Source of the DNA: Chitinophaga pinensis
GTDB lineage: Bacteria > Bacteroidota > Bacteroidia > UKL13-3
DNA: 64,000 bases
Assembly: GCA_945870425.1 (NCBI GenBank)
Contig: CAMBSD010000006.1
Location: forward strand, 69,735-133,734
Reading direction: 5' to 3'
Shown: one piece after another, positions 8,432-21,238 of the stretch
How the letters are laid out: each line of letters opens with the position of its first letter
Numbering within the stretch: the first letter of the stretch is position 1
Translations under genes and position numbers: made by a program
The notes under the pieces: generated by a model
Seen by the model: only the letters and a program-made list of their open reading frames with translations
Told to the model about the DNA's origin: nothing
Database searches by the model: none

Positions 8432-8893
8432 TTGCTTTTCTTATTGCAAAAAAAATTTTATAAAATATTTGTAATCATGATTAAGAAAACCAGCAAAATG
8501 CCAATTCACAAGAACGAGAAAATTGTCATGGACAAAACTTCTATTAAGCTATCTATTAAGGATACTAAGTCGAAAACAAATTTAATACCATTAGATGCAA
8601 TCAAAGTTTTTTGTAACTCGCAATCTATTGAAATTGAACCTTTACTTCAAGAGCACAAATCCCCAATTCTGATTGCTGTTAATCACTCATACCTGCAAAC
8701 TCAATTGGATTTGACAGGTGTATCAAATCAAGCTATTTTTAGTTTTGAATCAGATGGAAAATTTATTGGTGCTAGTTTATTAGGAAAAAATGGAGCATCA
8801 TCAGTTCAATTCCTAAACCTAGGACGATTGATTCTAATTGCCCCATTGAAATTGAATTTGACTGCTCATTCAATTACCCATATAAAGTATTAA
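8432..8893 (+). CDS. hypothetical protein (AT-rich accessory islet)
   Basis: 153-aa ORF with no recognisable motifs. The start is uncertain and several in-frame Met codons are present. Confidence 0.3.
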   Translation: MLFLLQKKFYKIFVIMIKKTSKMPIHKNEKIVMDKTSIKLSIKDTKSKTNLIPLDAIKVFCNSQSIEIEPLLQEHKSPILIAVNHSYLQTQLDLTGVSNQAIFSFESDGKFIGASLLGKNGASSVQFLNLGRLILIAPLKLNLTAHSITHIKY

Positions 8894-9030
8894 TTTTTTT
8901 CAACCTTAGTAGAAGTTAGACTTTCTAATAAGTTTGATTATTTTACTATTTTACTATGAAATATTTCTAATGTTTCATTATGATTATTGTATTTTTTAAT
9001 TCAATAAATATTAACTGTTAAAACTTATAA

Positions 9031-9456
9031 ATGGATAAAGTTAAATTATTAAAAGCATATTCAGAAACGGAGTATATAATTCCTGAGTTAGACATAACAA
9101 TAAGGATAGGAGAAAAAAATAAGCTTTTAGATATCATTCAACATAAATATTTCTCTAATAATTGGGCATTTGTTTCAGCTGAAAACCCAAGGTCTAGTTT
9201 ACTTTCTGACGAAGAGAATAGTCAAAGATCAGTTATGTTGGAAAATGCGATAATGCAATTAGACAGACCATATTTTATTGGTTATGGTAAGGGAAAAGGT
9301 GATTGGAAACCTGAAAAATCTTTTTTGGTTTTAAAAACTTCAAAGATGGAAGCAATTGATATTTTTGGAATTCCATTTGAACAAAATGCTATAGTAATTG
9401 GTCAAATAGGAAAAGCTTCGGAACTATTAGCGATAGACGAAATATTTCAAGGATAA
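9031..9456 (+). CDS. hypothetical protein, DUF3293-like
   Basis: WAFVSAENP ... KPEKSFLV ... FEQNAIV resembles the AF(I/V)TAxNP / EPSF / QNA pattern of DUF3293, recalled from memory. Confidence 0.45.
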   Translation: MDKVKLLKAYSETEYIIPELDITIRIGEKNKLLDIIQHKYFSNNWAFVSAENPRSSLLSDEENSQRSVMLENAIMQLDRPYFIGYGKGKGDWKPEKSFLVLKTSKMEAIDIFGIPFEQNAIVIGQIGKASELLAIDEIFQG

Positions 9457-9597
9457 TTGCAAAAAAAATAGTTGATTTTTCAGTTGGCATTTTCTGATGC
9501 CAAGCTAATATGCATTAGATAGATGTTTTTAGGTAATGCCAACATTTATAATAAGATGAATCCTTATATTTAATACTATACAACACCAACAAAATCT

Positions 9598-9648
9598 TAC
9601 TATCCGTAGTCTTGCGAGCTAGATATTTGCGGGGCGGACTACGGATTT
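9598..9648. repeat. REP hairpin, GTAG family (CTATCCGTAGTC...GACTACGGAT)
   Basis: Perfect 10-bp stem carrying the GTAG tetranucleotide typical of REPs recognised by RAYTs. Shares its left arm with the hairpins at 11175 and 13641. Confidence 0.65.
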
Positions 9649-9697
9649 AATATGAAAAAAGAGTTTGTAACTCGCGTTAAATATTTATTTTTGAGTA

Positions 9698-9793
9698 ATG
9701 TCAGATGCTGGATACCAAATAAGAGACCAATTTGCAGTCCATTTTATTACTTTTTCTGTGGTTGAATGGATAGACGATTTTACAAGAGCATAG
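9698..9793 (+). pseudogene. 5' fragment of a RAYT gene (first 31 codons, then TAG)
   Basis: MSDAGYQIRDQFAVHFITFSVVEWIDDFTRA* is nearly identical at the nucleotide level to the start of the intact gene at 10588. It is interrupted where a REP begins. Confidence 0.7.
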
Positions 9794-9799
9794 TATGCT

Positions 9800-9850
9800 C
9801 CGCACTCGCTAGCGTCACGCTAGTGAGCCTATTGGTAGGCCTAAGGCTGT
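9800..9850. repeat. palindromic REP (GCACTCGCTAGCG-TCAC-CGCTAGTGAGC), copy 1
   Basis: Imperfect palindrome. A second copy lies at 10444-10492. Confidence 0.6.
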
Positions 9851-9901
9851 TTTTATAAAGAGTTCAAATGTTTTTGCAAAACAATAATTTATATTTGTAG
9901 T

Positions 9902-10129
9902 ATGATACAGCGTACATATAACTTTGAAAACGAAAAGCAAGCTAAGCAGTTTGACCAATTGTATATAAAAATGAAGCAACATAAGTTAACTGTAGAAGAT
10001 GCAACGTTTGGTATTGGTAGGACGGCTACCAATAAGGAGTTGATTGATTTTTTTGATGAAGAAGATATAGGAGAAGATTTGTTTTTAGACCAAGCAATTG
10101 AAAGGATAAAATCAAATTTTAACCACTGA
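9902..10129 (+). CDS. putative antitoxin-like small protein
   Basis: 75 aa. Its stop overlaps the start of the next ORF (TGATG). Calling it an antitoxin is an inference from the pairing. Confidence 0.35.
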   Translation: MIQRTYNFENEKQAKQFDQLYIKMKQHKLTVEDATFGIGRTATNKELIDFFDEEDIGEDLFLDQAIERIKSNFNH

Positions 10130-10413
10130 TGGAAGTAATAATTAAACCGAAAGCCCAAAAAGCATTAAGTTTGATTGCCACGTTTGTAGAGGAGAGAAAT
10201 ACACCTCAGAGTGGTTTGCGTTATATTGAAAAATTTGCTTCTAAAATAAAAATATACGCTAAAGAAAATGTTCAATACTCGTTGTGTAATAATATTACAC
10301 TTTCCACCCTTGGATATTCATGCATAACAATAAGTAAATGGGTTGTGGTTTTTAAAATACAAAATCAAAAATTTGTTGTTTATCGTATTATTTGGGGTGC
10401 TTTGTTAAATTGA
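10129..10413 (+). CDS. putative RelE/ParE-like toxin
   Basis: 94 aa. The C-terminal KWVVVFKIQNQKFVVYRIIWGA resembles the beta-strand core of RelE/ParE. Its overlap with the upstream small ORF is typical of TA pairs. Confidence 0.35.
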   Translation: MEVIIKPKAQKALSLIATFVEERNTPQSGLRYIEKFASKIKIYAKENVQYSLCNNITLSTLGYSCITISKWVVVFKIQNQKFVVYRIIWGALLN

Positions 10414-10443
10414 TTTGTTAAAAGTTTATTTCAGCACTCGCTA

Positions 10444-10492
10444 GCGTCCCGCTAGTGAGCCTATTGATAAGCCTCTGGCTGTTTTTTACTTA
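10444..10492. repeat. palindromic REP (GCACTCGCTAGCG-TCCC-GCTAGTGAGC), copy 2
   Basis: Paralogue of 9800-9850. Confidence 0.6.
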
Positions 10493-10502
10493 CTATTCGT
10501 CT

Positions 10503-10548
10503 TGCGAGCCAGATACTAGCGGGGCTGACTACGGATTTAAAATGAAAG
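10503..10548. repeat. degenerate copy of the GTAG-family hairpin (..TTGCGAGCCAGATACTAGCGGGGCTGACTACGGAT)
   Basis: Right arm and loop are conserved with 9598-9648. The left arm has eroded. Confidence 0.5.
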
Positions 10549-10587
10549 AAGAGTTTGTAACTCGCGTTAAATATTTATTTTTGAGTA

Positions 10588-11145
10588 ATGTCAGATGCTG
10601 GATACCAAGTAAGAGACCAATTTGCAGTCCATTTTATTACTTTTTCTGTGGTTGAATGGATAGACGTTTTTACAAGAGCGCAGTATGCTGATATTGTAGT
10701 TGACAGTTTGAGAAATTGCCAGTTAAATAAGGCTTTAAACGTGCATGCTTGGTGTTTAATGAGTAATCATATTCATTTAATCGTTTCAACTAATGAACCA
10801 ATAACGCTTTCAGAAGTATTGAGGGATTTTAAAAAGTTTACCTCATCTAGTATTATTAAAGCTATTGAAACAAATACAAAAGAAAGCAGAAAAAATTGGA
10901 TGCTTTGGATATTTAAAAAAGCTGGAGAGAAAAATGAAAGAAATAAAGATTATCAATTTTGGCAACAAGAAAATCATCCAATAGAATGTTCAACTAATGA
11001 AATATTGCAATCAAAAATAAAATACTTGCATGAAAATCCTGTGAGAGCTGGGTTAGTAAGAAATGAAAGTGATTATGTGTATTCAAGTGGGATTGATTAT
11101 TACACAAATGAAAAAGGATTAATTGAAATTGATTTTATTTACTAA
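10588..11145 (+). CDS. REP-associated tyrosine transposase (RAYT; IS200-like HuH Y1 transposase)
   Basis: 185 aa with an HuH motif (SNHIHLIV) and the C-terminal Tyr motif region KYLHENPVRAGLV. It is flanked by GTAG-containing REP hairpins. Confidence 0.72.
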   Translation: MSDAGYQVRDQFAVHFITFSVVEWIDVFTRAQYADIVVDSLRNCQLNKALNVHAWCLMSNHIHLIVSTNEPITLSEVLRDFKKFTSSSIIKAIETNTKESRKNWMLWIFKKAGEKNERNKDYQFWQQENHPIECSTNEILQSKIKYLHENPVRAGLVRNESDYVYSSGIDYYTNEKGLIEIDFIY

Positions 11146-11174
11146 CCCGTGACGGAGACACTACTATTCATAAT

Positions 11175-11210
11175 ATATCCGTAGAGCGCTTCGCTAACTC
11201 TACGGATAGT
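11175..11210. repeat. REP hairpin, GTAG family (TATCCGTAGAG-CGCTTCGCTAA-CTCTACGGATA)
   Basis: 11-bp perfect stem with an 11-nt loop, lying between the convergent RAYT and TonB-receptor genes. It may also act as a bidirectional terminator. Confidence 0.65.
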
Positions 11211-11305
11211 TGTGGATATTTAAGAGTTGATTTGTTTCACGATGCAGTTTATGAGTTAGCGCTTAGAAAAAAAGTGTTAGTCTTTTATATTGGCAAGCCA
11301 ATAAA

Positions 11306-13489
11306 TTAAAATTTTACTCCAAAACTTAAATAAAAAGTCCTTCCATTTCCGGGTAATAAACCCGGTCCAGGGTAACCGTTCGATCTGCGAGTAGCATAGG
11401 CTTCGTCAGCTAAATTATTTACTCCAGATTTAATATTACAATTTTTTAAAAATACGTAAGCACAAGATAAGTCCATTACTTTATAGCCTTCTATTTTTCC
11501 TATTTGATAAGTGGTGTTTGGTAGCTCGGTGTTTAATGCATCTGTATATATCTCACTTGAGCTACTGTAAAGAAAAGTAGAAGTAAATGTTTTGTAAGTA
11601 TATGTTAAACCCATTCTATTTATATTTCTTGGTGCATTTTCAACCTGTTTTCCATTATAACTTTTTGTTGGATCTGTTTCTTTAGAGTTTACATATTTAG
11701 CATCAATAAATGAGTTTGAAGTAAACAAACTGATGCTTCCCCATTTTGGATTTTCGTTCCATATTTTAAATGGATTTATTTCAATAAATGATTCAATTCC
11801 TTGGCTTACCGACTGGCCTATATTGGTTTTAAAATTTGCTCCATTTTGTAAGATTGTTCCAACTCTATTGTCGTAGTTTAAATAAAACATGCCAACATCA
11901 AAATTTAAAAAGTTTTTAACCATTCCTCTGTATCCAAAATCGGCATTTAAACCTTTTGCATCTTTCAGATTTGGATCTATAATTTCATCTGCATTTGAAG
12001 GTGTAAATTCTGAAAAAGTAACTGGACGATAAGCTTGTGAAATATTAGCATAAATATTAGTCTTAGTACTTATTAAATATTCAGAGCCAATTCCTGCTAA
12101 CAAAATATTTCTATAACTAGTTTGTGGTACTATAGAACTAGTATTACTGTTAATTGTTCCTTCTATTTTATTGTAAATATTCTCAAAACGAACGCCCGGT
12201 ATCACTTTAAATTTATTGGTAATTTGAAAAATATTTTCAGCAAAAAATGCATAATTATTAGTGTTAAATTTTAAATCTGTTACATATTGGTTATTGGTCA
12301 ATGTAATATCAAAATCGGAACCCGAATTACCTGTGCCTTTTTGTTTTCTTTGGGTGTTACCTGCATATGCCCTAACTCCGCTTGCTAATGTATGACTTTG
12401 TTTAAATAATTTATACTTATACGATAACCTAGCTTCAGTGCCAATGTTTTGATAAAAATCTCTATCTACCCTTCGTAAATTATAAGCCAATGTTAGTGGA
12501 TTGATAATGTCTATAATATTTATAGCACTCAAATTTCCAACGCTGTTTCTTTCGCTCATACTTGTAAAAGTTTTTATAATCAAACTAACCTTAGGTGATA
12601 TATCATATTTAATAGTTAAAGCTGCTACATTCCATGGTGTTCCAATCCAGTTTCTTGCTCTGTTCGATAATGGTGAATTGGTTTTTAACTGAATATCGGT
12701 TAATCCACCAGGTTGTTGACTCGAATTTTCCATATTGGTATATTCAAGTGCTATATTTAATTTTTTGGTAAATTGATAGTTGGCCGAAACAAAAAAAGTC
12801 CTAGTATTATATCTGCTATTTTGCCTCCAACCATCAGCTTGTCTATCGTGTAAAAACACATAATAATTTAGTTTTTTTATAGTGCCACCTATTGCCGAAT
12901 AGAAATTGGCCAAACCATAACTTCCAAATGTCACTTGTTCTTCTACACTTAATTTTTTAGTAGCATGACCTTGTTTTATTTCGTAGTTTAACAAACCACC
13001 AAACTGAGTTCCATACTGCAGCGAAGAAGCTCCTCTCACAATTTCTATTTTTGATAAAGATTCTGTAGGTGGAGTATAATAAGATTCAGGGTATCCAAAT
13101 GCTTCTGAGCTAATATCATATCCATTTTGCCTAACATTAAATTCCCAAGACCTGTTTGCACTTAAACCCCTTGTTGAAATATTTGTTTGAATTCCTGACC
13201 CATCGTTTTCCCAAATGTTCAACCCAGGAACTTTACTGAAAATTTGTCGTGTATTGTTTATACTTAAATCTGCATTTATTTTATCTAATATAATTACTTC
13301 CGATTTCTTTCCTGCATAAATAACATTGTCTTTAATTTCAGGCATTCTTTCTATACCTCCAATATTTTTTTGCTCATGAATTATTAATTCATTTAGGAGA
13401 GTAGTTTTAGTAGTATCGCCATTTTGAGACTGTCCTTTTGTATTAATTGCAAATAGAATCGTGGCAATTAAAATGAACTTAACTTTCAT
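11306..13489 (-). CDS. TonB-dependent outer-membrane receptor
   Basis: 727 aa with a signal peptide, an N-terminal plug region, a beta-barrel body and a terminal aromatic residue (..SFGVKF). Confidence 0.8.
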   Translation of the reverse strand: MKVKFILIATILFAINTKGQSQNGDTTKTTLLNELIIHEQKNIGGIERMPEIKDNVIYAGKKSEVIILDKINADLSINNTRQIFSKVPGLNIWENDGSGIQTNISTRGLSANRSWEFNVRQNGYDISSEAFGYPESYYTPPTESLSKIEIVRGASSLQYGTQFGGLLNYEIKQGHATKKLSVEEQVTFGSYGLANFYSAIGGTIKKLNYYVFLHDRQADGWRQNSRYNTRTFFVSANYQFTKKLNIALEYTNMENSSQQPGGLTDIQLKTNSPLSNRARNWIGTPWNVAALTIKYDISPKVSLIIKTFTSMSERNSVGNLSAINIIDIINPLTLAYNLRRVDRDFYQNIGTEARLSYKYKLFKQSHTLASGVRAYAGNTQRKQKGTGNSGSDFDITLTNNQYVTDLKFNTNNYAFFAENIFQITNKFKVIPGVRFENIYNKIEGTINSNTSSIVPQTSYRNILLAGIGSEYLISTKTNIYANISQAYRPVTFSEFTPSNADEIIDPNLKDAKGLNADFGYRGMVKNFLNFDVGMFYLNYDNRVGTILQNGANFKTNIGQSVSQGIESFIEINPFKIWNENPKWGSISLFTSNSFIDAKYVNSKETDPTKSYNGKQVENAPRNINRMGLTYTYKTFTSTFLYSSSSEIYTDALNTELPNTTYQIGKIEGYKVMDLSCAYVFLKNCNIKSGVNNLADEAYATRRSNGYPGPGLLPGNGRTFYLSFGVKF

Positions 13490-13640
13490 TGTTTAAATAT
13501 TGATTTGAGTGCTGCAACAATATTATTTAGAATTATTCTAAACAATGATTAAAGTTACCGAATTGATTTACTTTTTTTCTTTTGTATGCTATCACTTGTT
13601 AATCAATATTTTATATCTTTTTAGTGTTTAAAACCTCTTA

Positions 13641-13675
13641 CTATCCGGAGAGCGCTTCGCTAACTCTACGGATAG
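13641..13675. repeat. REP hairpin, GTAG family, second copy (CTATCCGGAGAG-CGCTTCGCTAA-CTCTACGGATAG)
   Basis: Same loop and right arm as 11175-11210. The left arm has one mismatch (GGAG where the other copy has GTAG). Confidence 0.65.
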
Positions 13676-13756
13676 TTGTTGTGTTTGGGATGTAATGAAA
13701 AATAAGATTCCAGAAATGCACGAGCAAATTACTGCATTTTTGGATAAAGAGTAAAA

Positions 13757-15190
13757 CTATTGCCAGCCACCTCCCAAGGCTTTATAAACATTTACAGATG
13801 AATTATATTGTCGTTTTTTAGTTGCAATCAATTCTAATTTTGATTGTAGTGCAGTTCTTTGGGTCATTAATACTTCATAATAGTTGGCGCGTCCTGATTT
13901 AAACAAATCAGAAGCGATGTCAATTGAAGTATCAAGCATAGCAACTTCTTTAGATTTTAATACATAAATATTTTCTAAGTTATGTATGTTAGACAATTCA
14001 TTAGCAACTTCTATGTAAGCATTTAAGATTGTTTTTTGATATTGAAACAAAGCCTCTAATTGATATGCTTTAGCATTATTAAACTGCGCTTTTATGGCAC
14101 TTCTATTTATTAGAGGAGCTGTTAAATTACCCAAAACGCCATAGGCTATGGATTGTGGTGTAGAGAACAAAAATTCTGTATTGAACGATTGAAATCCAGC
14201 ATTACCAGTAATAACAAAAGATGGATAAAAAGCCGCTTTGGCTGCTTTAACATTCATTTTTGATGCCAATAAATCAAATTCAGATTTTTTAATATCTGGT
14301 CTGTTTTTGAGCAAGTGGCTGGGCAAACCAGCCTTAATTATCGGGGCAAATTGTGTATTAAAACTTAACTTATCACGAGTAATTGTTTGTGGGAATCTAC
14401 CAAGTAAAAAATTTAGTTTATTTTCATTTTCTTTAATTTTTTGTAGTAGTTCATAAGCTAAACTTTTTGCATTTAATACTTGTGCTTCAAATTGTTTAAT
14501 GGCTAATTCATTTGCAACTCCTGCTTGTTTTTGAACTTTATAAATCTCCAAAACATTTTCTTGAATTTTTATTGTAGAATCAATGATATTTAGCTCTACA
14601 TCTAATGCAACAAGATCATAATACGTGTTGGCAATTTCGGCTATAAAGTTTGTTTTCACTAAATTTACTCCTTCAACACTGCTCAAGTATCTGGTAAAGG
14701 CCGCTTTTTTTTTATTTCTTAATTTGCCCCAAATATCTATTTCCCAATTAGCTTGAAGACCCACCAAATAATCTGGTAAATGCATAGGAATAAGTTGCCC
14801 TGGTCTAATTTCTGTTACCCTATTTCCTGCATCATCCATTGTGTAGTATCCAAATTTTCTTTGTAAATATGAAAAATTTGCATTCACTGTTGGTAACAAC
14901 GCTCCTTTACTTAATCTTAAATCGTTTCTAGCTACCTCAATTTTTTGTAAAGTCATCAAAATATCAAAGTTGTTTGCCAAGGCTGTATCAATAAGTACTA
15001 CTAGGTTTTTATCTAAGAAAAAATCTTTCCATTTTATGTCAGCTGAATTTATGCTATCACTTTTTTGGGAATAAGAAGTAGGAATTTTTTTTTGATCGAT
15101 AGTAATTTTATTAGGCGAAGTTTTACATCCAAAGCATAAAATTAGTACAGATAAAATAGTTATAAATGTGTTTATCTTAAATAGTGTCAT
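13757..15190 (-). CDS. RND efflux outer-membrane factor (TolC/NodT family)
   Basis: 477 aa with a lipoprotein-type signal and the ALGGGW C-terminal motif. Its start overlaps the AcrB-like gene by 14 nt. Confidence 0.8.
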   Translation of the reverse strand: MTLFKINTFITILSVLILCFGCKTSPNKITIDQKKIPTSYSQKSDSINSADIKWKDFFLDKNLVVLIDTALANNFDILMTLQKIEVARNDLRLSKGALLPTVNANFSYLQRKFGYYTMDDAGNRVTEIRPGQLIPMHLPDYLVGLQANWEIDIWGKLRNKKKAAFTRYLSSVEGVNLVKTNFIAEIANTYYDLVALDVELNIIDSTIKIQENVLEIYKVQKQAGVANELAIKQFEAQVLNAKSLAYELLQKIKENENKLNFLLGRFPQTITRDKLSFNTQFAPIIKAGLPSHLLKNRPDIKKSEFDLLASKMNVKAAKAAFYPSFVITGNAGFQSFNTEFLFSTPQSIAYGVLGNLTAPLINRSAIKAQFNNAKAYQLEALFQYQKTILNAYIEVANELSNIHNLENIYVLKSKEVAMLDTSIDIASDLFKSGRANYYEVLMTQRTALQSKLELIATKKRQYNSSVNVYKALGGGWQ

Positions 15191-18100
15191 GTTGATTTAT
15201 TTCTTCAGTTAAGGGATTTTTTTCAATGGCTTTGGACTTCATAGATTTGTTTGAAATGCTTTCGAATATGAAATATAAACCTGGAATGATGAGAACACCA
15301 AACACGGTACCAAAAAGCATTCCACCTGCCGATGCTGCCCCAATGGTTTTATTGCCTATGGCTCCAGCCCCACTTGCGAAAAGCAATGGAAGTAAACCAG
15401 CAATGAAAGCGAAAGATGTCATTAATATGGGCCTTAGCCTGAGTGTTGCCCCTTCTATTGCTGCTTTATAAGGCGAAAGGCCTTCTCTGTTTTTTTGTAC
15501 TGCAAATTCTACAATTAGTACAGCATTTTTGCCCAATAGTCCAATCAGCATTACCATGGCAACTTGAGCATATATATTATTTTCTAATCCAAAAATGGAC
15601 AAGAGAAATAGGGCACCAAAAATACCAGGTGGCAAAGAAAGAATAATGGGTAATGGTAGAATAAAACTTTCATATTGTGCTGCTAAAATAAGGTACACAA
15701 ATAGGAGGCAAATTAAGAAAATGTAAATGGCTTCATTACCGGCATTAGCTTGTTCTTTTGATGATCCAGCCCAATCAAATCCATAGCCTTGTGGTAGCTT
15801 TTCTTTTGCCACTTCTTTAATTGCATCAATGGCTTGACCACTGCTGAAACCAGTTTGAGGTTCACCATTAACCATTGCCGATGGATACATATTATACCTT
15901 GTAACTTGCTCTGGTCCATAAACTTTCTGAATGCTTAGAATAGAAGAAATGGCCACCATATTTCCATCGCGATTTTTTACACTCAGTTTTAATAGGTCTT
16001 CGGGTTTGGCTCTGTATTCAGGTGCAGCTTGTACCATTACTTTATACATTTGTCCAAACTGTATAAAATTAGTGGCATAATCACTACCTAAAAATGTTTG
16101 CAAGGTGTTTAGAACATCTCTAATTACTACACCTTTTTGTGCTGCCTTTGTATTGTCTATATTGATTAAATATTGAGGAAAGCTAGCATCGAATGATGAA
16201 AAGGTATTTTTTATTTCAGCACGTTTATTTAGTTCAGCAGAAAAATTGTGTGCAATTTCTTCCATTCTTTTCAAATCGCCCTTTCCGGTTTTATCTAAAA
16301 TGCGCAATTCAAATCCGCTTGAATTGCCATAGCCTGGAACAGGTGGAGGGGTAAAGAATTCAATCTTAGCATCCTTGATATGTTTAGTTTTCTCTTTTAA
16401 AATCGCAATGATATTCTGGTCGGTTTTTTTATGGTCGCTCCAGTTTTTTAAACTCATTAGTTTCATTCCATAAGAGGCACCTGTACCATCAGTTACAAAA
16501 TTATATCCCACCAAACTAGAAACGGATGCAATTTCTTCAATTTGAGATGCAACAGTTTGAATTTCATTTAATACTTCTTCAGTACGTTCCAAAGTGGCTC
16601 CTGATGGCGTTGTTATACTCGCGTAAATAGTTCCCTGATCTTCATTAGGAATAAATCCTGAAGGTAAGAAACGAGCAATACCATATGTGAATAAACAAAA
16701 AACAACTAAGGCAACTGTGGTAAGCACTCGCCTGTTAACAATGTTTTTTAAAACGTTTTTATACTTAGAGGCCAACTTTTTATAATTATTATTGAAGGCA
16801 TTGATAAAAGAATTTAAGACATTTTTTTTCTTAGTTTTACCATGTGTATTTTTAAGCATCATCGCACACAATGCTGGAGTTAAAGTTAATGCACTAATCC
16901 CTGATAATACAATAGATATAGCCAATGTTACCGAGAACTGCCGATAAAAAATTCCTACCGGTCCGCTCATAAACGCTACAGGTATAAATACTGCCGACAT
17001 TACTAAGGTAATGGCTATAATCGCGCCACCAATTTCTTTCATTGCTAATTCAGTTGCCTCTTTTGCATCCAAATGATGCTCTTCCATTTTAGCATGCACA
17101 GCCTCTACAACTACAATGGCATTATCTACCACAATACCTATTGCAAGTACCAATGCAAAAAGTGTAATGAGATTGATGGAAAAACCGAATAGCTGCATAA
17201 AAAAGAAGGTGCCAATCAAAGATACCGGTACTGCAATAGCGGGAATTAAGGTTGAACGAAAATCCCCAAGAAAAATAAATACAATTAAAGCTACTAATAA
17301 GAAGGCTTCAAATAATGTTTTTAATACCTCATGAATAGAGGCATCTAAAAAGCTTGATACATCGTAACTTGTTGTATAAGTTACACCAGCAGGAAAACTT
17401 TTTTGCAATTCTTCCATCTTTGTTTTGATGTTTTTAATGACATCGCTTGCATTGCTTCCTGGCCTTTGCTTTAATACAATTGCTGCTGATGGATTGCCGT
17501 TTTCTTTTGAAAGCACATCATAATCCAAAGAGCCAAACTCAATTTCAGCAATTTCCTTTAAGTGTAATATTTGCCCTTCGGTATTTCTCTTTATCACAAC
17601 ATTTTCATATTGCTCTTTTGTATTGTACTTACCCGAATATTTGATAACATATTGTAACGATTGTTCTTTTTTGCCAGAACTTTCACCCACCTTACCAGGA
17701 GCAGCTTCTACATTTTGCTCTTTTAAACTTTGCACTACATCTTCTGAAGATATTTCATAGTTGTTCATTTTTATTGGGTTCAACCAAATCCGCATGGCAT
17801 ATTCTCGTTGTCCCATTATATCAGCAAAGCCTACACCCTCAATGCGTTTTAGTTCAGGTAATATATTGATATCAGTATAATTATATAAAAACTTTTCATC
17901 TAGGTTTTCATCTGTACTAAGAAGGTTTAAATACAGAAGCATGCTGTTTTGAACTTTCTCTACTATGACACCAGATTTGATAACCTCTTCTGGCAACTCA
18001 TCAAGCACTGAGGCAGCTCTATTTTGCACATTTACGGCAGCAATTTCAGGATCCGTTCCTGCCTTAAAAACAATATTGATTACACTTGTTCCGTCATTTC

Positions 18101-18347
18101 CAGATACGGATGACATGTATGCCATTCCAGGAACACCATTGATGGCTCTTTCTAATGGAGTAACTACCGCCTTAATACATGATTCAGCATTTGCTCCAGT
18201 ATATTTTGTTGTAACAGTCACCTCAGGTGGTGCAATGTCGGGGAATTGTGTCATTGGCAATTGCGTAATAGCCAATCCTCCTAATATTGTAATTAATAAG
18301 GAAATAACAATGGATAATACAGGTCTTTGAATGAATTGATTATACAT
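15177..18347 (-). CDS. RND multidrug efflux transporter, inner-membrane permease (AcrB/HAE1 family)
   Basis: 1056 aa, begins MYNQFIQRPVLSIVISLLI, has 12 TM segments and two large periplasmic loops. Confidence 0.85.
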   Translation of the reverse strand: MYNQFIQRPVLSIVISLLITILGGLAITQLPMTQFPDIAPPEVTVTTKYTGANAESCIKAVVTPLERAINGVPGMAYMSSVSGNDGTSVINIVFKAGTDPEIAAVNVQNRAASVLDELPEEVIKSGVIVEKVQNSMLLYLNLLSTDENLDEKFLYNYTDINILPELKRIEGVGFADIMGQREYAMRIWLNPIKMNNYEISSEDVVQSLKEQNVEAAPGKVGESSGKKEQSLQYVIKYSGKYNTKEQYENVVIKRNTEGQILHLKEIAEIEFGSLDYDVLSKENGNPSAAIVLKQRPGSNASDVIKNIKTKMEELQKSFPAGVTYTTSYDVSSFLDASIHEVLKTLFEAFLLVALIVFIFLGDFRSTLIPAIAVPVSLIGTFFFMQLFGFSINLITLFALVLAIGIVVDNAIVVVEAVHAKMEEHHLDAKEATELAMKEIGGAIIAITLVMSAVFIPVAFMSGPVGIFYRQFSVTLAISIVLSGISALTLTPALCAMMLKNTHGKTKKKNVLNSFINAFNNNYKKLASKYKNVLKNIVNRRVLTTVALVVFCLFTYGIARFLPSGFIPNEDQGTIYASITTPSGATLERTEEVLNEIQTVASQIEEIASVSSLVGYNFVTDGTGASYGMKLMSLKNWSDHKKTDQNIIAILKEKTKHIKDAKIEFFTPPPVPGYGNSSGFELRILDKTGKGDLKRMEEIAHNFSAELNKRAEIKNTFSSFDASFPQYLINIDNTKAAQKGVVIRDVLNTLQTFLGSDYATNFIQFGQMYKVMVQAAPEYRAKPEDLLKLSVKNRDGNMVAISSILSIQKVYGPEQVTRYNMYPSAMVNGEPQTGFSSGQAIDAIKEVAKEKLPQGYGFDWAGSSKEQANAGNEAIYIFLICLLFVYLILAAQYESFILPLPIILSLPPGIFGALFLLSIFGLENNIYAQVAMVMLIGLLGKNAVLIVEFAVQKNREGLSPYKAAIEGATLRLRPILMTSFAFIAGLLPLLFASGAGAIGNKTIGAASAGGMLFGTVFGVLIIPGLYFIFESISNKSMKSKAIEKNPLTEEINQHDTI

Positions 18348-18349
18348 GG

Positions 18350-19462
18350 CTATTGCAAATTAAATTTTGAGAAAATTTGTTCCATCGATATAAACTCGCC
18401 TATTATTTGATCCCCATCCTTCACCTTCTGAATGCCCTCAAATACAAATTTGTCTTTGGTGGTAAGACTATTTTCTATCACATAAAAATGTGGTAAACGT
18501 TGCTTTATTAAAATATTTTTAGCTTTTACCTTATTGTTTTCATCTACTACATACACATAATATTTATCCTGTATTTCAAAGGTTGACTTTTGAGGAATAA
18601 TCATAGCTTTATTAAGTTCATTAGTCAGTTGTACTATGCCGCTTGATCCGTGTCTGAGAAGGAGATTTGGGTTTGCAAACTTGGCTCTAAAGGCTATATT
18701 ACCGGTATTTTTATCAAACTCTCCATCGATGGTTTCAATCGTACCTTTGTATTGGTGAGGTTGATTGTTGGCCAACAATAAGTTGATTTTATTTTTTTCG
18801 ATAGAAGCTTTTTGCGATCTGATATTCAAATATTCTTTCTCTGAAACATTAAAATAGGCAAATACCTCCTTATTATTCGATAAAGTAGTTAGCAGTGACC
18901 CTTCATCAATCATACTGCCTTTTTTGAAAGGGATTCGATCAATAATGCCATCAAAAGGGGCTTTGATTTCTGCATAGGATAGATGAAGTTTGGCAACTTG
19001 TTCTTCAGCTTTTGCTTCTTCAATTTTTGCTTTCGCAACATCTAACAGGGCCTTGGCTTTATCTAATTCAGTTTTAGAAACAATATTTTTAGCGAAAAGT
19101 ATCTGAACATTTTGCACTTCTAATTCGTCAACTTTTAGTTCAGCAATACCTGATTTTATTTTAGATTGGGCTCTGAGTAATTCTAGTTGAAAAGCCTCTT
19201 TGTTGATGCTAAACAAAAGTTGACCAGCCTTTACAGATGTGCCTTCATCCACATAAATATTTTCAAGATGGCCCTTTACTTTTGCTCGTATCTCGACATT
19301 TTGCAAGGATTGAATTTCAGCAACATATTCACTTGTATAATTGGTATCAATCATAACTGGACTAGTGATAGGTAATTTTTCTACTTCGGTTTGATTTTTT
19401 TTATTTGATGTGCAAGCCTCAAAGGCTATTGCTAAGATTAATAGTAATACTATTCTGTTCAT
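18350..19462 (-). CDS. RND efflux periplasmic adaptor (membrane fusion protein)
   Basis: The start is placed at MNRIVLLLILAIAFEAC, a lipobox signal. Coiled-coil and beta-barrel regions are typical of HlyD/AcrA. The gene abuts the AcrB-like gene. Confidence 0.75.
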   Translation of the reverse strand: MNRIVLLLILAIAFEACTSNKKNQTEVEKLPITSPVMIDTNYTSEYVAEIQSLQNVEIRAKVKGHLENIYVDEGTSVKAGQLLFSINKEAFQLELLRAQSKIKSGIAELKVDELEVQNVQILFAKNIVSKTELDKAKALLDVAKAKIEEAKAEEQVAKLHLSYAEIKAPFDGIIDRIPFKKGSMIDEGSLLTTLSNNKEVFAYFNVSEKEYLNIRSQKASIEKNKINLLLANNQPHQYKGTIETIDGEFDKNTGNIAFRAKFANPNLLLRHGSSGIVQLTNELNKAMIIPQKSTFEIQDKYYVYVVDENNKVKAKNILIKQRLPHFYVIENSLTTKDKFVFEGIQKVKDGDQIIGEFISMEQIFSKFNLQ

Positions 19463-19568
19463 AGGTTTATTGAAATTGAAAAAATGAAAATAGGCTTGTC
19501 GTTGAAAACAAAGCAAATCCAATTCAATTTCTTGAATGGATTAAATTAGAAATACGAAATTGGTGGAA

Positions 19569-19967
19569 TTATGACTTGGGTGGTGGGGGCACAATATTGG
19601 GGTGAAATTGCGAACGATATTTATCATCATATTCGGTTGAGGCAACTATGTATAGCCCATTGCCATAAAAAATATCGTGTTCAACTTTTTTTTGATGGAA
19701 AAAAACAATTTCTTCTTCAAGGTCGCAACCATTGCCTTCCTCCGCACCATTTTCTTCATTTTCTGCAATTGGGCCATGTAAGTCAAGAATCTTTTCAATC
19801 ACCATCTTTGCAATATCTGCCATGTTATTATAGCTCAGATCTTCTTGAATATTATCGGATTGATTATCAGGTGTGTATAAACTACAATTAAAGATGTGCA
19901 AGGCTAATACAAACCAAAGTAGGCGGGAAATTATATGGTTTCTAATGGCTTGCATAATGCGGGACAA
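19569..19967 (-). CDS. hypothetical protein with an N-terminal hydrophobic anchor
   Basis: 132-aa ORF upstream of the efflux operon. The opposite-strand ORF 19571..19891 is the alternative reading, so the call is weak. Confidence 0.3.
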   Translation of the reverse strand: MSRIMQAIRNHIISRLLWFVLALHIFNCSLYTPDNQSDNIQEDLSYNNMADIAKMVIEKILDLHGPIAENEENGAEEGNGCDLEEEIVFFHQKKVEHDIFYGNGLYIVASTEYDDKYRSQFHPNIVPPPPKS

Positions 19968-20101
19968 AAATATACGAAAATTTTAGGTTTAATAATGATG
20001 CGGTAGGAGATTTGGTCATGAAAGTGTTATTTTTTCTAAATTATATTTGTGATAAGTTTTAGCTATCCCCGTTCTTTTGGGTTTGTTATAGCGCAATTTT
20101 T

Positions 20102-20118
20102 ATGTTAGCGCAGCGCAT
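20102..20118. repeat. left copy of a 17-bp inverted repeat (ATGTTAGCGCAGCGCAT) bracketing the RAYT-2 locus
   Basis: The exact reverse complement occurs at 21045-21061, about 940 bp away. Confidence 0.55.
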
Positions 20119-20210
20119 CCCGAACCAAAGATAAAAATGGATATTTATCCAATTTTATAATCTTAGTTTTGAAATATAATTGTGTTTTTACTTTGCTTAA
20201 TTCTGTCCTC

Positions 20211-20283
20211 GGTTGGTATCCTTACCAACCGAATTTTGACCTATTTTCATAAATTTGTCCAAGGTTGGTGTCCTCACCAATCC
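20211..20283. repeat. two tandem REP hairpins, GGTTGGTGT family (GGTTGGTATCCTTACCAACC and GGTTGGTGTCCTCACCAATCC)
   Basis: 8-bp stems with TCCT loops, lying 17 bp upstream of RAYT-2. Confidence 0.65.
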
Positions 20284-20299
20284 TTCCTACATTTGACTA

Positions 20300-20806
20300 A
20301 TGTACTTTTTTACTGCAACCATAAATAATTGGCAAAACTTGTTAAGCAATAACGATGTAAAAAAAATCATTACTGATTCTCTATCTTGGCTTTCTAAAGA
20401 AAACAAAGCTTATATACATGGTTTTGTAATCATGCTAAATCATATTCATTTGTTGTGGACTATTAATAATCAGAATCAAGTAAATGAAATAGAAAATACT
20501 TTGCTCAAGTATACCGGACATGAATTCAAAAAACACCTCGTATCAAAAAACAGTGAATTGTTGGAAAACTACATTTCAACCCAAAACGACAGGGCTTATC
20601 ATTTTTTGGAAAGAAGAGCAAGAACAATTGAAATTAAAAGTAAAGAAATTGCCATTCAAAAACTGAATTATATTCATAACAACCCTATTCAAGAAAAATG
20701 GAAGCTAGTATCTTTGCCAGAAGAATATCAATTTTCATCGGCTAAATATTATGTTTGTTTAGATTCAGAGTTTGACTTTGTTGTTCACTTTAATGATTTT
20801 ATTTGA
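20300..20806 (+). CDS. REP-associated tyrosine transposase 2 (RAYT; IS200-like HuH)
   Basis: 168 aa with an HuH motif (LNHIHLLW) and a YIHNNP Tyr motif region. It is a distinct paralogue of the protein at 10588 and is flanked by inverted REP copies. Confidence 0.68.
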   Translation: MYFFTATINNWQNLLSNNDVKKIITDSLSWLSKENKAYIHGFVIMLNHIHLLWTINNQNQVNEIENTLLKYTGHEFKKHLVSKNSELLENYISTQNDRAYHFLERRARTIEIKSKEIAIQKLNYIHNNPIQEKWKLVSLPEEYQFSSAKYYVCLDSEFDFVVHFNDFI

Positions 20807-20815
20807 AATAAGAAA

Positions 20816-20845
20816 GTGGATTAGTGTGGACACCAACCAAGGACA
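20816..20845. repeat. inverted REP copy (TGGATTAGTGTGGACACCAACCAAGG) downstream of RAYT-2
   Basis: Its reverse complement matches the upstream CCAAGGTTGGTGTCC. Confidence 0.6.
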
Positions 20846-21038
20846 TAAATATAATGTTTAGTTAAAAATTCAGTACTTTATTTTTTGGATATGAAGTTCC
20901 TGCAACTTTGTATGGATATTTATCCAAAAAGATAATCATATTTCTATAATAAAATGGTGTGTTTTTAGTTGTTTGATAGAATGAGCAAATTGCTTGAATA
21001 TTGAAATAATGGCGGATTTAAATCCATGCTATCTGAAA

Positions 21039-21066
21039 TTCGACATGCGCTGCGCTAACATGTCGA
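21039..21066. repeat. hairpin ATTCGACATG-CGCTGCGCTAA-CATGTCGAAT that contains the right copy of the 17-bp inverted repeat
   Basis: 9-bp perfect stem. Its 11-nt loop differs by one base from the loop of the GTAG-family hairpins at 11175 and 13641. Confidence 0.55.
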
Positions 21067-21067
21067 A

Positions 21068-21112
21068 TAGCTGAGTTTGACTTTATTGTTCACTTTAATG
21101 ATTTTATTTGAA
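21068..21112 (+). pseudogene. duplicated 3'-terminal fragment of RAYT-2 (encodes ..SEFDFIVHFNDFI*)
   Basis: About 90% nucleotide identity to 20768-20812. It is followed by another REP copy. Confidence 0.55.
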
Positions 21113-21120
21113 ACAAGAAA

Positions 21121-21150
21121 GTGGATTGGTGAGGACACCAACCACGGACA
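21121..21150. repeat. inverted full REP copy (GTGGATTGGTGAGGACACCAACCACGG)
   Basis: Its reverse complement matches the hairpin at 20259-20283. Confidence 0.6.
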
Positions 21151-21238
21151 TAAATTCTTATGAACAGCATCATCCCCAAACTTGAAATAATATAGTTTTC
21201 ATAAAATCAATTTCAGCCTTAGATTTGTTTCATAAATT

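What the first reader, a model, noticed from the sequence alone, without database searches (positions are those of the whole stretch)
9598..13675. REP/RAYT locus 1: GTAG-bearing REP hairpins, an intact RAYT gene and a duplicated 5' RAYT fragment interrupted by a second REP
Three hairpins carry the GTAG tetranucleotide that RAYTs use as a cleavage and recognition site. They are 9598-9648, 11175-11210 and 13641-13675, and all share the arm CTATCCGTAG. They surround a HuH/Tyr transposase-like gene (10588-11145). About 0.9 kb upstream, a near-identical copy of the first 93 nt of that gene, together with its upstream hairpin, ends exactly where a different palindromic REP (GCACTCGCTAGCG..) begins. 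The same REP plus hairpin then recur immediately upstream of the intact gene. So a REP, or a REP-bounded segment, appears to have inserted into or recombined with a RAYT copy, leaving a direct repeat that brackets a toxin-antitoxin-like pair. The two GTAG hairpins with identical loops (CGCTTCGCTAA) sit at both ends of the TonB-receptor gene, where they could also act as terminators. REP/RAYT systems are well described in Proteobacteria but much less so in Bacteroidetes.
Basis: partly seen in the sequence, partly recalled or inferred. Interest (0 to 1): 0.6.

Follow-up and report, generated by a model that had tools for sequence, protein, structure and literature searches.

The report
Bacteroidota REP hairpins around a RAYT gene
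This is a genuine but already described kind of locus: a domesticated single-strand-DNA transposase gene (RAYT) of the Bacteroidetes-specific subclass, flanked by its own hairpin repeats, with decayed extra copies whose hairpins mark the points where related strains have gained, lost or rearranged neighbouring genes.

Summary
ORF 10588-11145 is a RAYT/TnpAREP: it passes the NCBIfam REP_Tyr_transpos cut-off, has the HUH and Tyr motifs, and its best fold match is E. coli TnpAREP (4ER8). It is 70% identical to Pedobacter saltans ADY50670.1, which Quentin et al. 2018 placed in subclass 2.6 (Bertels group 5) and for which they listed a REP with the same CCGTAGAG/CTCTACGG stem.

The hairpins belong to a roughly 76-nt two-hairpin module. 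The gene sits between two inverted copies of it. Other Bacteroidota carry RAYT-less, extragenic copies, mostly as head-to-head doublets. In 74 kb of the source contig, modules occur only at the two RAYT loci.

- the left end of a truncated copy,
- the right end of the intact copy,
- a hairpin-2-only remnant.

GTAG lies inside the stem and is absent from the sister module family, so a role as the cleavage tag is not supported.

The second palindrome (Y) is a separate REP-like hairpin, multi-copy in relatives, and an IS110-family element has inserted at its foot in three assemblies. Sister assemblies show rearrangements exactly at these hairpins, including loss of the TonB-receptor gene. How the 5' fragment came to be duplicated is unresolved.

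Verdict: a new member of a known kind, of moderate interest.

The parts
9596..9686 (-). Left-end (LE) two-hairpin module of a decayed RAYT copy. It contains hairpin A1 (9602-9646, intact) and the small hairpin GAGTT-aca-AACTC.
   Evidence: Covariance model R1 gives 42.4 bits, E = 6e-8. DNA fold -12 kcal/mol.
9698..9799 (+). 5' RAYT pseudogene fragment: 34 codons with an in-frame TAG at codon 32.
   Evidence: tblastn matches aa 1-34 at 91%. Nucleotide identity to the intact gene is 96%. The repeat boundary is shown.
9799..9854 (+). Y1, a second REP-like unit. It has the hairpin CTCGCTAGCG-TCA-CGCTAGTGAG, then a short hairpin and a T-run.
   Evidence: Direct repeat of 10431-10486. Fold shown. 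Copies occur in L050 (two) and L017. A 19-nt core differs from the Aequorivita subclass 2.6 REP by one compensatory pair. An IS110-family element sits between 9806 and 9807 in L057, L058 and L061.
9902..10129 (+). Candidate antitoxin ORF (75 aa). Its stop overlaps the toxin start (ATGA).
   Evidence: ORF list. No Pfam or NCBIfam hit. The exact protein is found in 59 blocks of public contigs.
10129..10413 (+). ParE/RelE-family toxin ORF (94 aa).
   Evidence: Pfam ParE_toxin 24.8 bits, cut-off 23. RelE_StbE is weak.
10431..10486 (+). Y2, the second copy of the REP-like unit, 3 nt upstream of the LE module of the intact RAYT.
   Evidence: z = -3.6. The same Y-then-LE order is seen in L050 and L017.
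10489..10576 (-). LE module of the intact RAYT. The left arm of hairpin 2 has lost 3 nt, so that hairpin no longer folds. The small hairpin is intact.
   Evidence: R1 gives 27.3 bits. Fold -4.6 kcal/mol, z = +1.2.
10588..11145 (+). Intact RAYT/TnpAREP gene (185 aa) of subclass 2.6 / group 5. HUH is N60-H61-I62-H63; the catalytic Tyr is Y146 in YLHENP.
   Evidence: NCBIfam NF047646 101 bits (cut-off 80); IS200 model 24.8 bits (cut-off 55). Pfam Y1_Tnp 33.6 bits. Invariant residues. Fold match to 4ER8 with TM 0.59/0.65. dN/dS 0.15-0.33.
11136..11213 (+). Right-end (RE) module overlapping the stop codon. The small hairpin carries one mismatch (GTGAC/GACAC). It includes hairpin B1.
   Evidence: R1 gives 81.6 bits, E = 7e-18. 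The 23-nt core is identical in 35 stretches of GTDB genomes.
11306..13489 (-). TonB-dependent receptor gene, bracketed by the direct repeats B1 and B2. It is not part of the element, but it is absent in strain L055 with the junction inside the hairpin.
   Evidence: Pfam Plug and TonB_dep_Rec_b-barrel. L055 is colinear with window ..11213 and then 13645...
13605..13679 (+). B2, a hairpin-2-only module remnant. Its outer left flank is LE-type (CTTACTATCCG) and the rest is RE-type. It is probably the scar of a third RAYT copy.
   Evidence: R1 gives 48.1 bits with hairpin 1 unpaired. A related assembly (L002 3633-4361) has a full LE-RAYT-RE beginning 34 nt nearer the conserved TonB-receptor upstream sequence.
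13682..13759 (+). Last 78 nt of a HepT toxin gene: the remnant of a second toxin-antitoxin pair, next to the module scar.
   Evidence: 98.7% identical to L050 3664-3741, which is the end of a full MNT/HepT pair lying upstream of Y-LE-RAYT.

Best explanation
The locus is a REPtron of the Bacteroidetes-specific RAYT subclass (TnpAREP subclass 2.6 = RAYT group 5), together with the debris of further copies.

Anatomy. The gene 10588-11145 encodes a HUH/Tyr single-strand-DNA endonuclease. It sits between two inverted copies of a roughly 76-nt two-hairpin module. Each module has a small 5-bp hairpin next to the gene, an AT-rich spacer, and a 10-12-bp outer hairpin with a conserved apical GCGCTNCGCTAAC. 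The element ends at ACTATCCGTAG ... CTACGGATAGT.

Inferred mechanism. By analogy with E. coli TnpAREP and IS200/IS605 TnpA, the protein binds these hairpins when they are extruded in single-stranded DNA, and cuts and rejoins at or near their feet. This would spread RAYT-less module pairs and make every module a preferred breakpoint.

Reading of the window:
- Copy b (10489-11213) keeps an intact gene under purifying selection, but both of its end modules are damaged.
- Copy a (9596-9799) is a left end plus 34 codons, fused to the foot of a second REP-like hairpin (Y1).
- Copy c has collapsed to a single hairpin (B2).
- The ParE-type toxin-antitoxin pair, bounded by Y1 and Y2, lies between a and b. 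The TonB-receptor gene lies between b and c.

What is shown: the gene's identity, the module structure and covariation, its dispersal in other genomes, and strain-to-strain rearrangements at the hairpins.

What is inferred: enzymatic cleavage at these hairpins, and the order of events that produced the duplicated 5' fragment.
For: Protein:
- NF047646 REP_Tyr_transpos 101 bits, above the cut-off of 80; the IS200 model is below its cut-off.
- HUH and Y-x-x-x-N-P are invariant among homologues.
- The AF2 model's best PDB match is 4ER8 TnpAREP, followed by ISDra2, IS200 and IS608 transposases.
- 3629 homologues, about 70% identical across Sphingobacteriales genera, many named REP-associated tyrosine transposase.

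Classification:
- Homologue P0043 is the P. saltans gene whose REP CTGTCCGTAGAGTTAAGTGAAACGTCTCTACGG is listed under subclass 2.6 (ADY50670.1) by Quentin et al. 2018.
- That sequence is found exactly beside P0043.

Module:
- The 23-nt core is identical in 35 GTDB stretches from several orders, including 10 copies in Cytophaga aurantiaca.
- Only 4 of those 35 stretches have a RAYT within 8 kb.
- The two-hairpin layout is visible.
- The covariance model finds 104 copies in 48 loci. Wherever both flanks of an intact RAYT were read, the layout is module(-), RAYT, module(+). About 15 doublets lack a RAYT.
- 15 of 17 base pairs show compensatory changes, 0 of 500 shuffles reach the observed values, and slid controls score far lower.
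- 64 of 65 copies are extragenic, against a 75% coding-frame background.

Decay and rearrangement:
- L002 has a full second element beginning 34 nt from where the window has B2, plus an LE-RE doublet.
- L055 lacks the TonB-receptor gene, with the junction inside hairpin B.
- L041 joins window position 11212 to 9812.
- An IS110-family element sits at the foot of Y1.
- Between strains, the element differs by about 4% while its flanks differ by 0.4-0.7%, and the differences stop at the module ends.
Against: - In the 64-kb window plus 10 kb more of the source contig, modules occur only at the two RAYT loci. High-copy dispersal in the source genome itself is therefore not shown.
- Copy numbers in other genomes are low (1-10 exact cores), far below classical REPs.
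- A related assembly has two intact RAYT paralogues 3 kb apart. This does not fit the one-copy, domesticated picture.
- No cleavage site can be read from the sequence.
- The order of events behind X1-Y1-TA-Y2-X2 is not resolved. L041 fits a separate upstream copy, a tandem duplication, or a circle of 9812-11212 equally well.
Confidence: 0.78

Rival explanations
1. The unit LE-RAYT-RE is a still-active IS200/IS605-like insertion sequence rather than a domesticated RAYT. On this reading the LE-RE doublets are its MITEs, and the fragments here are ordinary IS debris.
For: - Terminal hairpins sit in inverted orientation at both ends, and doublets have exactly LE+RE structure.
- One intact copy and remnants of two more lie within 4 kb. 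There are two intact copies in L002 and presence/absence differences between strains.
- P. saltans has an internally deleted copy next to the intact one.
- L050 carries arrays of end fragments.
Against: - The IS200 NCBIfam model scores 24.8 bits against a cut-off of 55. The Tyr motif is Y-x-x-x-N-P (class 2), not the Y-x-x-x-Q of IS200.
- Paralogues differ by 9-10% (dS about 0.3), so no recent identical copies exist.
- Copy b is at the same site in at least 10 assemblies.
- Its LE hairpin is broken while the gene stays under purifying selection.
Confidence: 0.25
2. One reading: a REP (Y), or a Y-bounded cassette carrying the toxin-antitoxin pair, inserted into or was joined to a RAYT copy by hairpin-directed cleavage, creating the duplicated 5' fragment.
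For: - X1 ends at the 5' foot of the Y1 hairpin.
- L053 shows an independent second case: LE plus 36 nt of RAYT joined to another stem-TCC-stem hairpin.
- REP insertions inside tnpAREP genes are documented for subclass 2.4.
- Y lies just upstream of LE modules in three lineages.
Against: - The RAYT frame does not continue after Y1.
- A roughly 200-nt direct repeat is not what a simple insertion leaves.
- L041 shows a RAYT 3' end plus RE abutting Y1, which suggests tandem units with later deletion.
- The subclass 2.4 insertions keep the reading frame; this junction does not.
Confidence: 0.3
3. The hairpins are ordinary transcription terminators or regulatory palindromes of the neighbouring genes, unrelated to the transposase-like ORF.
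For: They are intergenic and sit at gene ends. Y has a short second hairpin followed by a T-run and follows three different genes.
Against: - No terminator-like site is called at any of them.
- The A and B modules have no T-run.
- Wherever both flanks of an intact RAYT homologue were read, the same module lies on each side in inverted orientation, across orders.
- The stems covary while the apical loop stays fixed.
Confidence: 0.05

Closest known systems
TnpAREP subclass 2.6 REPtrons (Quentin et al. 2018, PMC6006769) = RAYT group 5 (Bertels et al. 2017, PMC5581495)
   Same: - Mostly Bacteroidetes, about 180 aa, with NH[LIV]H, WQ and YIH[QN]NP-type motifs (here NHIH, WQ, YLHENP).
[quoted passage not shown]
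- The P. saltans member ADY50670.1 is 70% identical, and its listed REP has the same CCGTAGAG/CTCTACGG stem.
   Different: The papers give only single hairpins found by eye. Seen here and not found in what was read of those papers:
- the two-hairpin module,
- its invariant apical loop shared by two stem families,
- the LE-RE doublets,
- the strain-level rearrangements.

The Tyr motif has E where the consensus has Q or N.
E. coli REP/BIME with TnpAREP (subclass 2.2; PDB 4ER8)
   Same: - HUH/Tyr monomer fold, and the best structural match.
- The gene lies between inverted REPs.
- The hairpins have an irregularity (bulge) needed for recognition in E. coli (abstract).
   Different: - Sequence identity is about 17%.
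- E. coli REPs have a 5' GTAG foot and hundreds of copies.
- Here GTAG is inside the stem, the module has a second small hairpin, and copy number is low.
REPIN-RAYT systems of Pseudomonas (group 3 / subclass 2.5)
   Same: The dispersed form is a doublet of two inverted REP units, and the RAYT is flanked by the same units.
   Different: - Here the doublet is exactly the RAYT element minus its gene, with distinct LE and RE units in the window's clade.
- Copy numbers are tens, not hundreds to thousands.
- The core is identical across orders rather than species-specific.
IS200/IS605 family (IS608, ISDra2)
   Same: - Subterminal hairpins at both ends.
- No target duplication visible at doublet flanks.
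- HUH/Tyr transposase fold.
   Different: - Below the IS200 model cut-off.
- Class 2 Tyr motif.
- No identical multicopy set.
- Orthologous position conserved between strains.
Subclass 2.4 'double-foot' REPs and REP insertions in tnpAREP genes (Quentin et al. 2018)
   Same: - Runella and Solitalea REPs read GTAGAG....CTCTAC, the same outer stem letters as hairpin B.
- That paper notes such hairpins can arise by central deletion of an inverted dimer, which is how B2 looks.
   Different: - The window protein groups with subclass 2.6, not 2.4.
- The subclass 2.4 in-gene REP insertions preserve the reading frame, unlike the X1|Y1 junction.

Membership tests
RAYT / TnpAREP (REP-associated tyrosine transposase) | HUH motif and catalytic Tyr in a Y-x-x-x-N-P context | tested here: met
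   N60-H61-I62-H63 and Y146-L-H-E-N-P are invariant in alignments A5 and A6. They align with HMH and YIYINP of 4ER8.
RAYT / TnpAREP (REP-associated tyrosine transposase) | Scores above the curated family threshold and above IS200 models | tested here: met
   NF047646 scores 101.1 bits (cut-off 80). NF033573 IS200 scores 24.8 bits (cut-off 55).
RAYT / TnpAREP (REP-associated tyrosine transposase) | TnpAREP/IS200-type HUH fold | tested here: met
   AF2 model pLDDT 75.5. Top Foldseek PDB hit is 4ER8_A, E = 2.9e-6, TM 0.59/0.65.
RAYT / TnpAREP (REP-associated tyrosine transposase) | Gene flanked by inverted copies of a palindromic repeat | tested here: met
   The layout module(-), RAYT, module(+) is seen in the window, L002 (twice), L003, L010, L038, L040, L050 and L053-L061.
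RAYT / TnpAREP (REP-associated tyrosine transposase) | The same repeat is dispersed, extragenic and multicopy in the host genome | tested here: inconclusive
   Met in other genomes: 10 exact cores in C. aurantiaca, 2-4 in several MAGs, and 64 of 65 copies extragenic. In the 74 kb of the source contig that could be read, all six copies lie at the two RAYT loci. The 3.25-Mb relative could not be scanned.
RAYT / TnpAREP (REP-associated tyrosine transposase) | Single-copy, vertically inherited gene (domesticated behaviour) | tested here: inconclusive
   The position is orthologous in at least 10 assemblies and dN/dS is 0.15-0.33. But L002 has two intact paralogues, and fragments abound.
RAYT / TnpAREP (REP-associated tyrosine transposase) | Cleaves and rejoins its cognate single-stranded REP | not testable with these tools
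   Needs purified protein and oligonucleotides.
Subclass 2.6 / RAYT group 5 | Close homology to classified members, and the same REP type | tested here: met
   70% identity to P0043. P0043's flanks contain the exact REP listed for ADY50670.1 under subclass 2.6.
Canonical GTAG-tagged REP | Conserved GT[AG]G tetranucleotide at the 5' foot, outside the stem | tested here: not met
   GTAG lies inside the stem (CCGTAGAG/CTCTACGG). C-type modules fit the same model with the stem TTCGACATG and no GTAG. Quentin et al. report that subclass 2.6 REPs lack the consensus.
IS200/IS605 insertion sequence | TnpA of IS200 type (Y-x-x-x-Q) in near-identical multiple copies | tested here: not met
   Below the IS200 cut-off. 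The motif is Y-x-x-x-N-P. Paralogues are only 90-91% identical.
Type II toxin-antitoxin (ParDE-like) | ParE/RelE-fold toxin with an adjacent small overlapping partner ORF | tested here: met
   ParE_toxin 24.8 bits, above the cut-off of 23. The 75-aa upstream ORF overlaps by ATGA. The antitoxin family is not identified.

The most novel reading that the evidence does not exclude
Subclass 2.6 REPtrons may be an intermediate between IS200/IS605 elements and fully domesticated REP/RAYT systems. On this reading the RAYT still mobilises its own LE...RE unit and the gene-less LE-RE doublets. Its hairpins, together with the companion stem-TCC-stem REPs, would act as breakpoints that exchange neighbouring cassettes (toxin-antitoxin pairs, a TonB-receptor gene, an efflux operon) between strains. 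The order-spanning identity of the 23-nt hairpin core would then reflect either strict protein recognition or a host function of the module.
Probability: 0.25. Interest if true: 0.6.

Novelty: new member of a known kind. Interest (0 to 1): 0.35.

Why it matters
REP/RAYT biology rests almost entirely on Proteobacteria. The Bacteroidetes subclass has been described only as having 'atypical secondary structures'.

This locus and its relatives add three things:
- a concrete, testable substrate: a two-hairpin module with a fixed apical loop and covarying stems;
- a low-copy system in which master copy, decayed copies and gene-less doublets can all be seen together;
- natural strain variants in which gene loss, IS insertion and duplication map to the hairpins.

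That makes it a convenient system for asking how RAYTs choose and cut their targets. It does not change the current picture.

Tried and rejected
- Rfam scan of 8500-22000 at E <= 1 found no family. The modules are not a described RNA.
- The terminator/promoter scan found nothing at the hairpins.
- The metagenome scan for the hairpin-B core was meant to count copies in the 3.25-Mb relative. It returned only 9 stretches and did not include that contig, so it gives no genome-wide count.
- A look-up of the first window ORF, to extend the contig leftwards, found nothing on record. The 10 kb beyond the right end holds no module.
- Simple tandem duplication was considered for X1...X2 (890-nt spacing) and for Y1...Y2 (632-nt spacing). 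It was rejected because the second unit does not repeat what follows the first.
- A target-site duplication at doublet ends was looked for and not seen. The exception is a roughly 30-nt flanking repeat in L004, which was not pursued.
- Association of the C-type modules with the second RAYT-like gene was considered. It is doubtful, because that gene has its own different flanking hairpins, and L002 keeps the C module without the gene.

Full report
**1. The observation**

- Hairpin A1 pairs 9602-9611 (ATCCGTAGTC) with 9637-9646.
- Hairpin B1 pairs 11177-11186 with 11198-11207.
- Hairpin B2 spans 13643-13673 and has the same loop, CGCTTCGCTAA. Its left arm reads CCGGAG.

ATCCGTAG occurs six times in the 64 kb, all at this locus, against 0.46 expected.

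A direct repeat, 9596-9799 versus 10489-10689 (95% identity), covers the upstream hairpin and the first 102 nt of ORF 10588-11145. The upstream fragment has an in-frame stop at codon 32.

The repeat stops where a 56-nt palindromic unit Y begins. Y is at 9799-9854 and recurs at 10431-10486.

Between the two Y copies lie a 75-aa ORF and an overlapping ParE-family ORF (Pfam 24.8 bits, cut-off 23).

One correction: the hairpin directly upstream of the intact gene has lost 3 nt from its left arm and no longer folds.

**2. The gene**

The 185-aa product is a RAYT/TnpAREP.
- It matches Pfam Y1_Tnp.
- It passes NCBIfam REP_Tyr_transpos (101 bits, cut-off 80) but fails the IS200 model (24.8 bits, cut-off 55).
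- N60-H61-I62-H63 and Y146-LHENP are invariant among homologues and align with the catalytic motifs of E. coli TnpAREP.
- An AlphaFold model (pLDDT 75.5) has 4ER8 (TnpAREP bound to a REP hairpin) as its best PDB match, followed by ISDra2, IS200 and IS608 transposases.
- There are 3629 homologues, about 70% identical across Sphingobacteriales genera, many annotated as REP-associated tyrosine transposase.

One homologue, P0043 of Pseudopedobacter saltans, carries in its flanks the exact REP that Quentin et al. 2018 list for ADY50670.1 under subclass 2.6. That REP has the stem CCGTAGAG/CTCTACGG of hairpin B.

Subclass 2.6 equals Bertels' RAYT group 5. It is described as mostly Bacteroidetes, about 179 aa, flanked by atypical structures without the GT[AG]G consensus, with copies elsewhere in the genome. 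The kind of system is therefore already described.

**3. The hairpins are parts of a larger module**

A scan of one genome per GTDB species with the 23-nt core of hairpin B found 35 stretches. They include Cytophaga aurantiaca (10 copies), Daejeonella, Pedobacter, Rubrolithibacter, Adhaeribacter, Ferruginibacter and Cyclobacteriaceae. Only four of the stretches have a RAYT within the 8 kb fetched.

Aligning the contexts showed a conserved unit of about 76 nt:
- a 5-bp hairpin (GTGTC..GACAC, covarying to GAGTC..GACTC and others),
- an AT-rich spacer,
- the long hairpin with apical GCGCTNCGCTAAC, followed by ATAG or ACAG.

In the window this unit overlaps the RAYT stop codon. Read on the other strand, the region upstream of the gene has the same layout.

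A covariance model built from 42 copies finds six copies in the window, and nothing else below E = 0.01:
- 11136-11213 (+)
- 13605-13679 (+)
- 9596-9686 (-)
- 10489-10576 (-)
- 21001-21074 (+), of a sister family
- 20096-20163 (-), of the same sister family

In the sister family both stems differ (GGATT/AATCC and TTCGACATG/CATGTCGAA) but the apical loop is the same. That sister stem matches the REP that Quentin et al. list for a second P. saltans subclass 2.6 gene.

Over 48 other loci the model finds 104 copies.
- Wherever both flanks of an intact RAYT were read, the RAYT lies between a minus-strand and a plus-strand module.
- About 15 head-to-head doublets have no gene between them.
- 15 of 17 base pairs show compensatory changes, no shuffle out of 500 reaches the observed values, and slid controls collapse. 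This alignment was fitted to the model, which favours the structure.
- 64 of 65 copies away from RAYT genes avoid long open frames, which cover 75% of the background.

The modules are therefore repetitive, extragenic and palindromic.

Copy numbers are low. In 74 kb of the source contig there are no copies away from the two RAYT loci.

**4. GTAG**

GTAG lies inside the stem, not at a 5' foot. The sister family lacks it while fitting the same model. Published subclass 2.6 REPs lack the consensus. The conserved features are the apical loop, the 3-4-nt bulge, the small hairpin and the outer ACT...AGT.

**5. What the three hairpins are**

Related assemblies give the context.

- L002 is a related MAG (TonB-receptor gene 99.3% identical). 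It has the same TA-Y2-LE-RAYT-RE-TonB order. Upstream of the TonB-receptor gene it carries a second complete LE-RAYT-RE. That element begins 34 nt nearer the conserved TonB-receptor upstream sequence than the window's B2. L002 also has an LE-RE doublet further on.
- B2 has an LE-type outer flank (CTTACTATCCG) fused to the RE hairpin. This is what a deletion between the ATCCGTAG arms of LE and RE would leave.
- A1 is the LE of a copy reduced to 34 codons.
- B1 is the RE of the intact copy.

The intact copy has a damaged LE hairpin and a mismatch in its RE small hairpin. Its gene is nevertheless under purifying selection, with dN/dS 0.15-0.33.

Between strains the element differs by about 4% while its flanks differ by 0.4-0.7%. 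The differences stop at the module ends. This suggests exchange with paralogous copies, which are themselves 9-10% apart.

**6. The second palindrome Y**

Y is CTCGCTAGCG-TCN-CGCTAGTGAG, followed by a short hairpin and a T-run.
- It occurs twice in L050, after two different genes, and once in L017 beside an LE-RE doublet.
- Its 19-nt core differs from the Aequorivita subclass 2.6 REP (CGCGAGCGTCCCGCTCGTG) only by one compensatory pair.
- In three assemblies an IS110-family element is inserted between 9806 and 9807, at the foot of the Y1 stem.
- In three lineages Y lies just upstream of an LE module.

Y is best read as a second REP class of the same REPtron neighbourhood.

**7. The duplicated 5' fragment**

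The layout X1-Y1-TA-Y2-X2 is present in at least eight independent assemblies.

One short contig from a sister sample (L041) instead joins a RAYT 3' end plus RE module (window 11212) to the loop of Y1 (window 9812). This fits three readings:
- a once-complete upstream RAYT that was later truncated to X1,
- a tandem duplication of 9812-11212,
- a circle of 9812-11212.

L053 and L060 carry three more LE fragments upstream. One of them has 36 nt of RAYT joined to another stem-TCC-stem hairpin. L050 has four tandem RE modules, three of them each preceded by the last 15-26 codons of the gene.

Fragments with one good end and a variable other end, abutting hairpins, recur. I favour decay of tandem copies with breakpoints at hairpins.

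**8. Rearrangements at the hairpins**

- L055 lacks the TonB-receptor gene. The sequence runs from the RE spacer of the RAYT into a hairpin carrying the B2-specific G, and on into the B2 flank. This is a B1 x B2 deletion of the 2466-nt unit.
- Between the window and L002, the region from B2 to the second RAYT-like gene is replaced. In the window it holds an RND efflux operon. In L002 it holds a different 3-kb segment. Both edges lie at module ends.
- Right after B2 lies the last 78 nt of a HepT toxin gene. Its full MNT/HepT pair sits upstream of Y-LE-RAYT in L050.

**9. Verdict**

- The REP/RAYT interpretation is right in kind.
- The GTAG and terminator ideas are not supported.
- The insertion story is unresolved.

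The system belongs to a described subclass, so it is a new member of a known kind. The module architecture, the doublets and the strain variants are useful detail rather than a new principle.

Noticed in passing
window 20300-20806, with flanks 20255-20290 and 20822-20848: A second, distant RAYT-like gene (168 aa; 24-26% identical to the first). Pfam Y1_Tnp scores 24.6 bits. NCBIfam REP_Tyr scores 64 bits, below the cut-off of 80. It is flanked by its own inverted hairpins (GGTTGGTG-TCC-TCACCAATCC type).
   Followed up: partly
window 20767-20850 versus 21075-21160: The last ~40 nt of the second RAYT-like gene plus its downstream hairpin are duplicated. The copies bracket 20851-21074, a segment that L002 has without that gene. 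This mirrors the end-fragment duplication at locus 1.
   Followed up: partly
window 21001-21074 (+) and 20096-20163 (-): Sister-family modules. They have the same covariance model and apical loop GCGCTGCGCTAAC, but both stems are different (GGATT/AATCC; TTCGACATG/CATGTCGAA). The stem matches the REP listed for a second P. saltans subclass 2.6 RAYT. The cognate gene in this genome was not identified.
   Followed up: partly
L057 1611-2909 (also L058, L061); insertion point window 9806|9807: A 1.3-kb IS110-family element (DEDD_Tnp_IS110 + Transposase_20) is inserted exactly at the 5' foot of the Y1 hairpin stem in three assemblies. No target duplication is evident.
   Followed up: partly
L055 4235-4311, versus window 11214-13644: A strain variant lacks the whole TonB-dependent receptor gene. 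The junction lies inside the shared hairpin B.
   Followed up: yes
window 13682-13759; L050 3109-3736: The window holds a remnant (78 nt) of a HepT toxin gene next to the hairpin scar. A relative has the intact MNT/HepT pair upstream of Y-LE-RAYT. Three different toxin-antitoxin pairs lie beside RAYT elements in this group of genomes.
   Followed up: partly
window 13.6-20.85 kb, versus L002 3.6-6.77 kb: This is a strain-variable segment. The window has an RND efflux operon (OEP, ACR_tran, MFP) plus the second RAYT-like gene. L002 has a RAYT copy, a Por_Secre_tail protein, an LE-RE doublet and a ParE pair. Synteny resumes at the 359-aa ParA/Mrp-like gene (window 21239).
   Followed up: partly
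L050 4567-5058: Four tandem right-end modules. The last three are each preceded by the last 15-26 codons of the RAYT gene.
   Followed up: partly
L017 6500-6700 (minus strand): An array of ~20-nt tandem repeats (tttactttatgct...) lies directly beside a Y copy and an LE-RE doublet.
   Followed up: no
L004 2590-2830: A module doublet in Cytophaga aurantiaca is flanked on both sides by a ~30-nt direct repeat (ttattaaaaYtcaggtacaatatcRcc).
   Followed up: no
L008 (CALPQG020000010.1): A contig binned as a Bifidobacterium breve MAG carries a perfect Bacteroidota-type module. It is probably mis-binned.
   Followed up: no
L003 4233-4644 (Pseudopedobacter saltans): A decayed RAYT copy with an internal deletion (aa 1-46 joined to 123-184) and its own right-end module lies just upstream of the intact Pedsa_0083. 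The tandem pattern of one intact and one decayed copy therefore recurs in another genus.
   Followed up: partly
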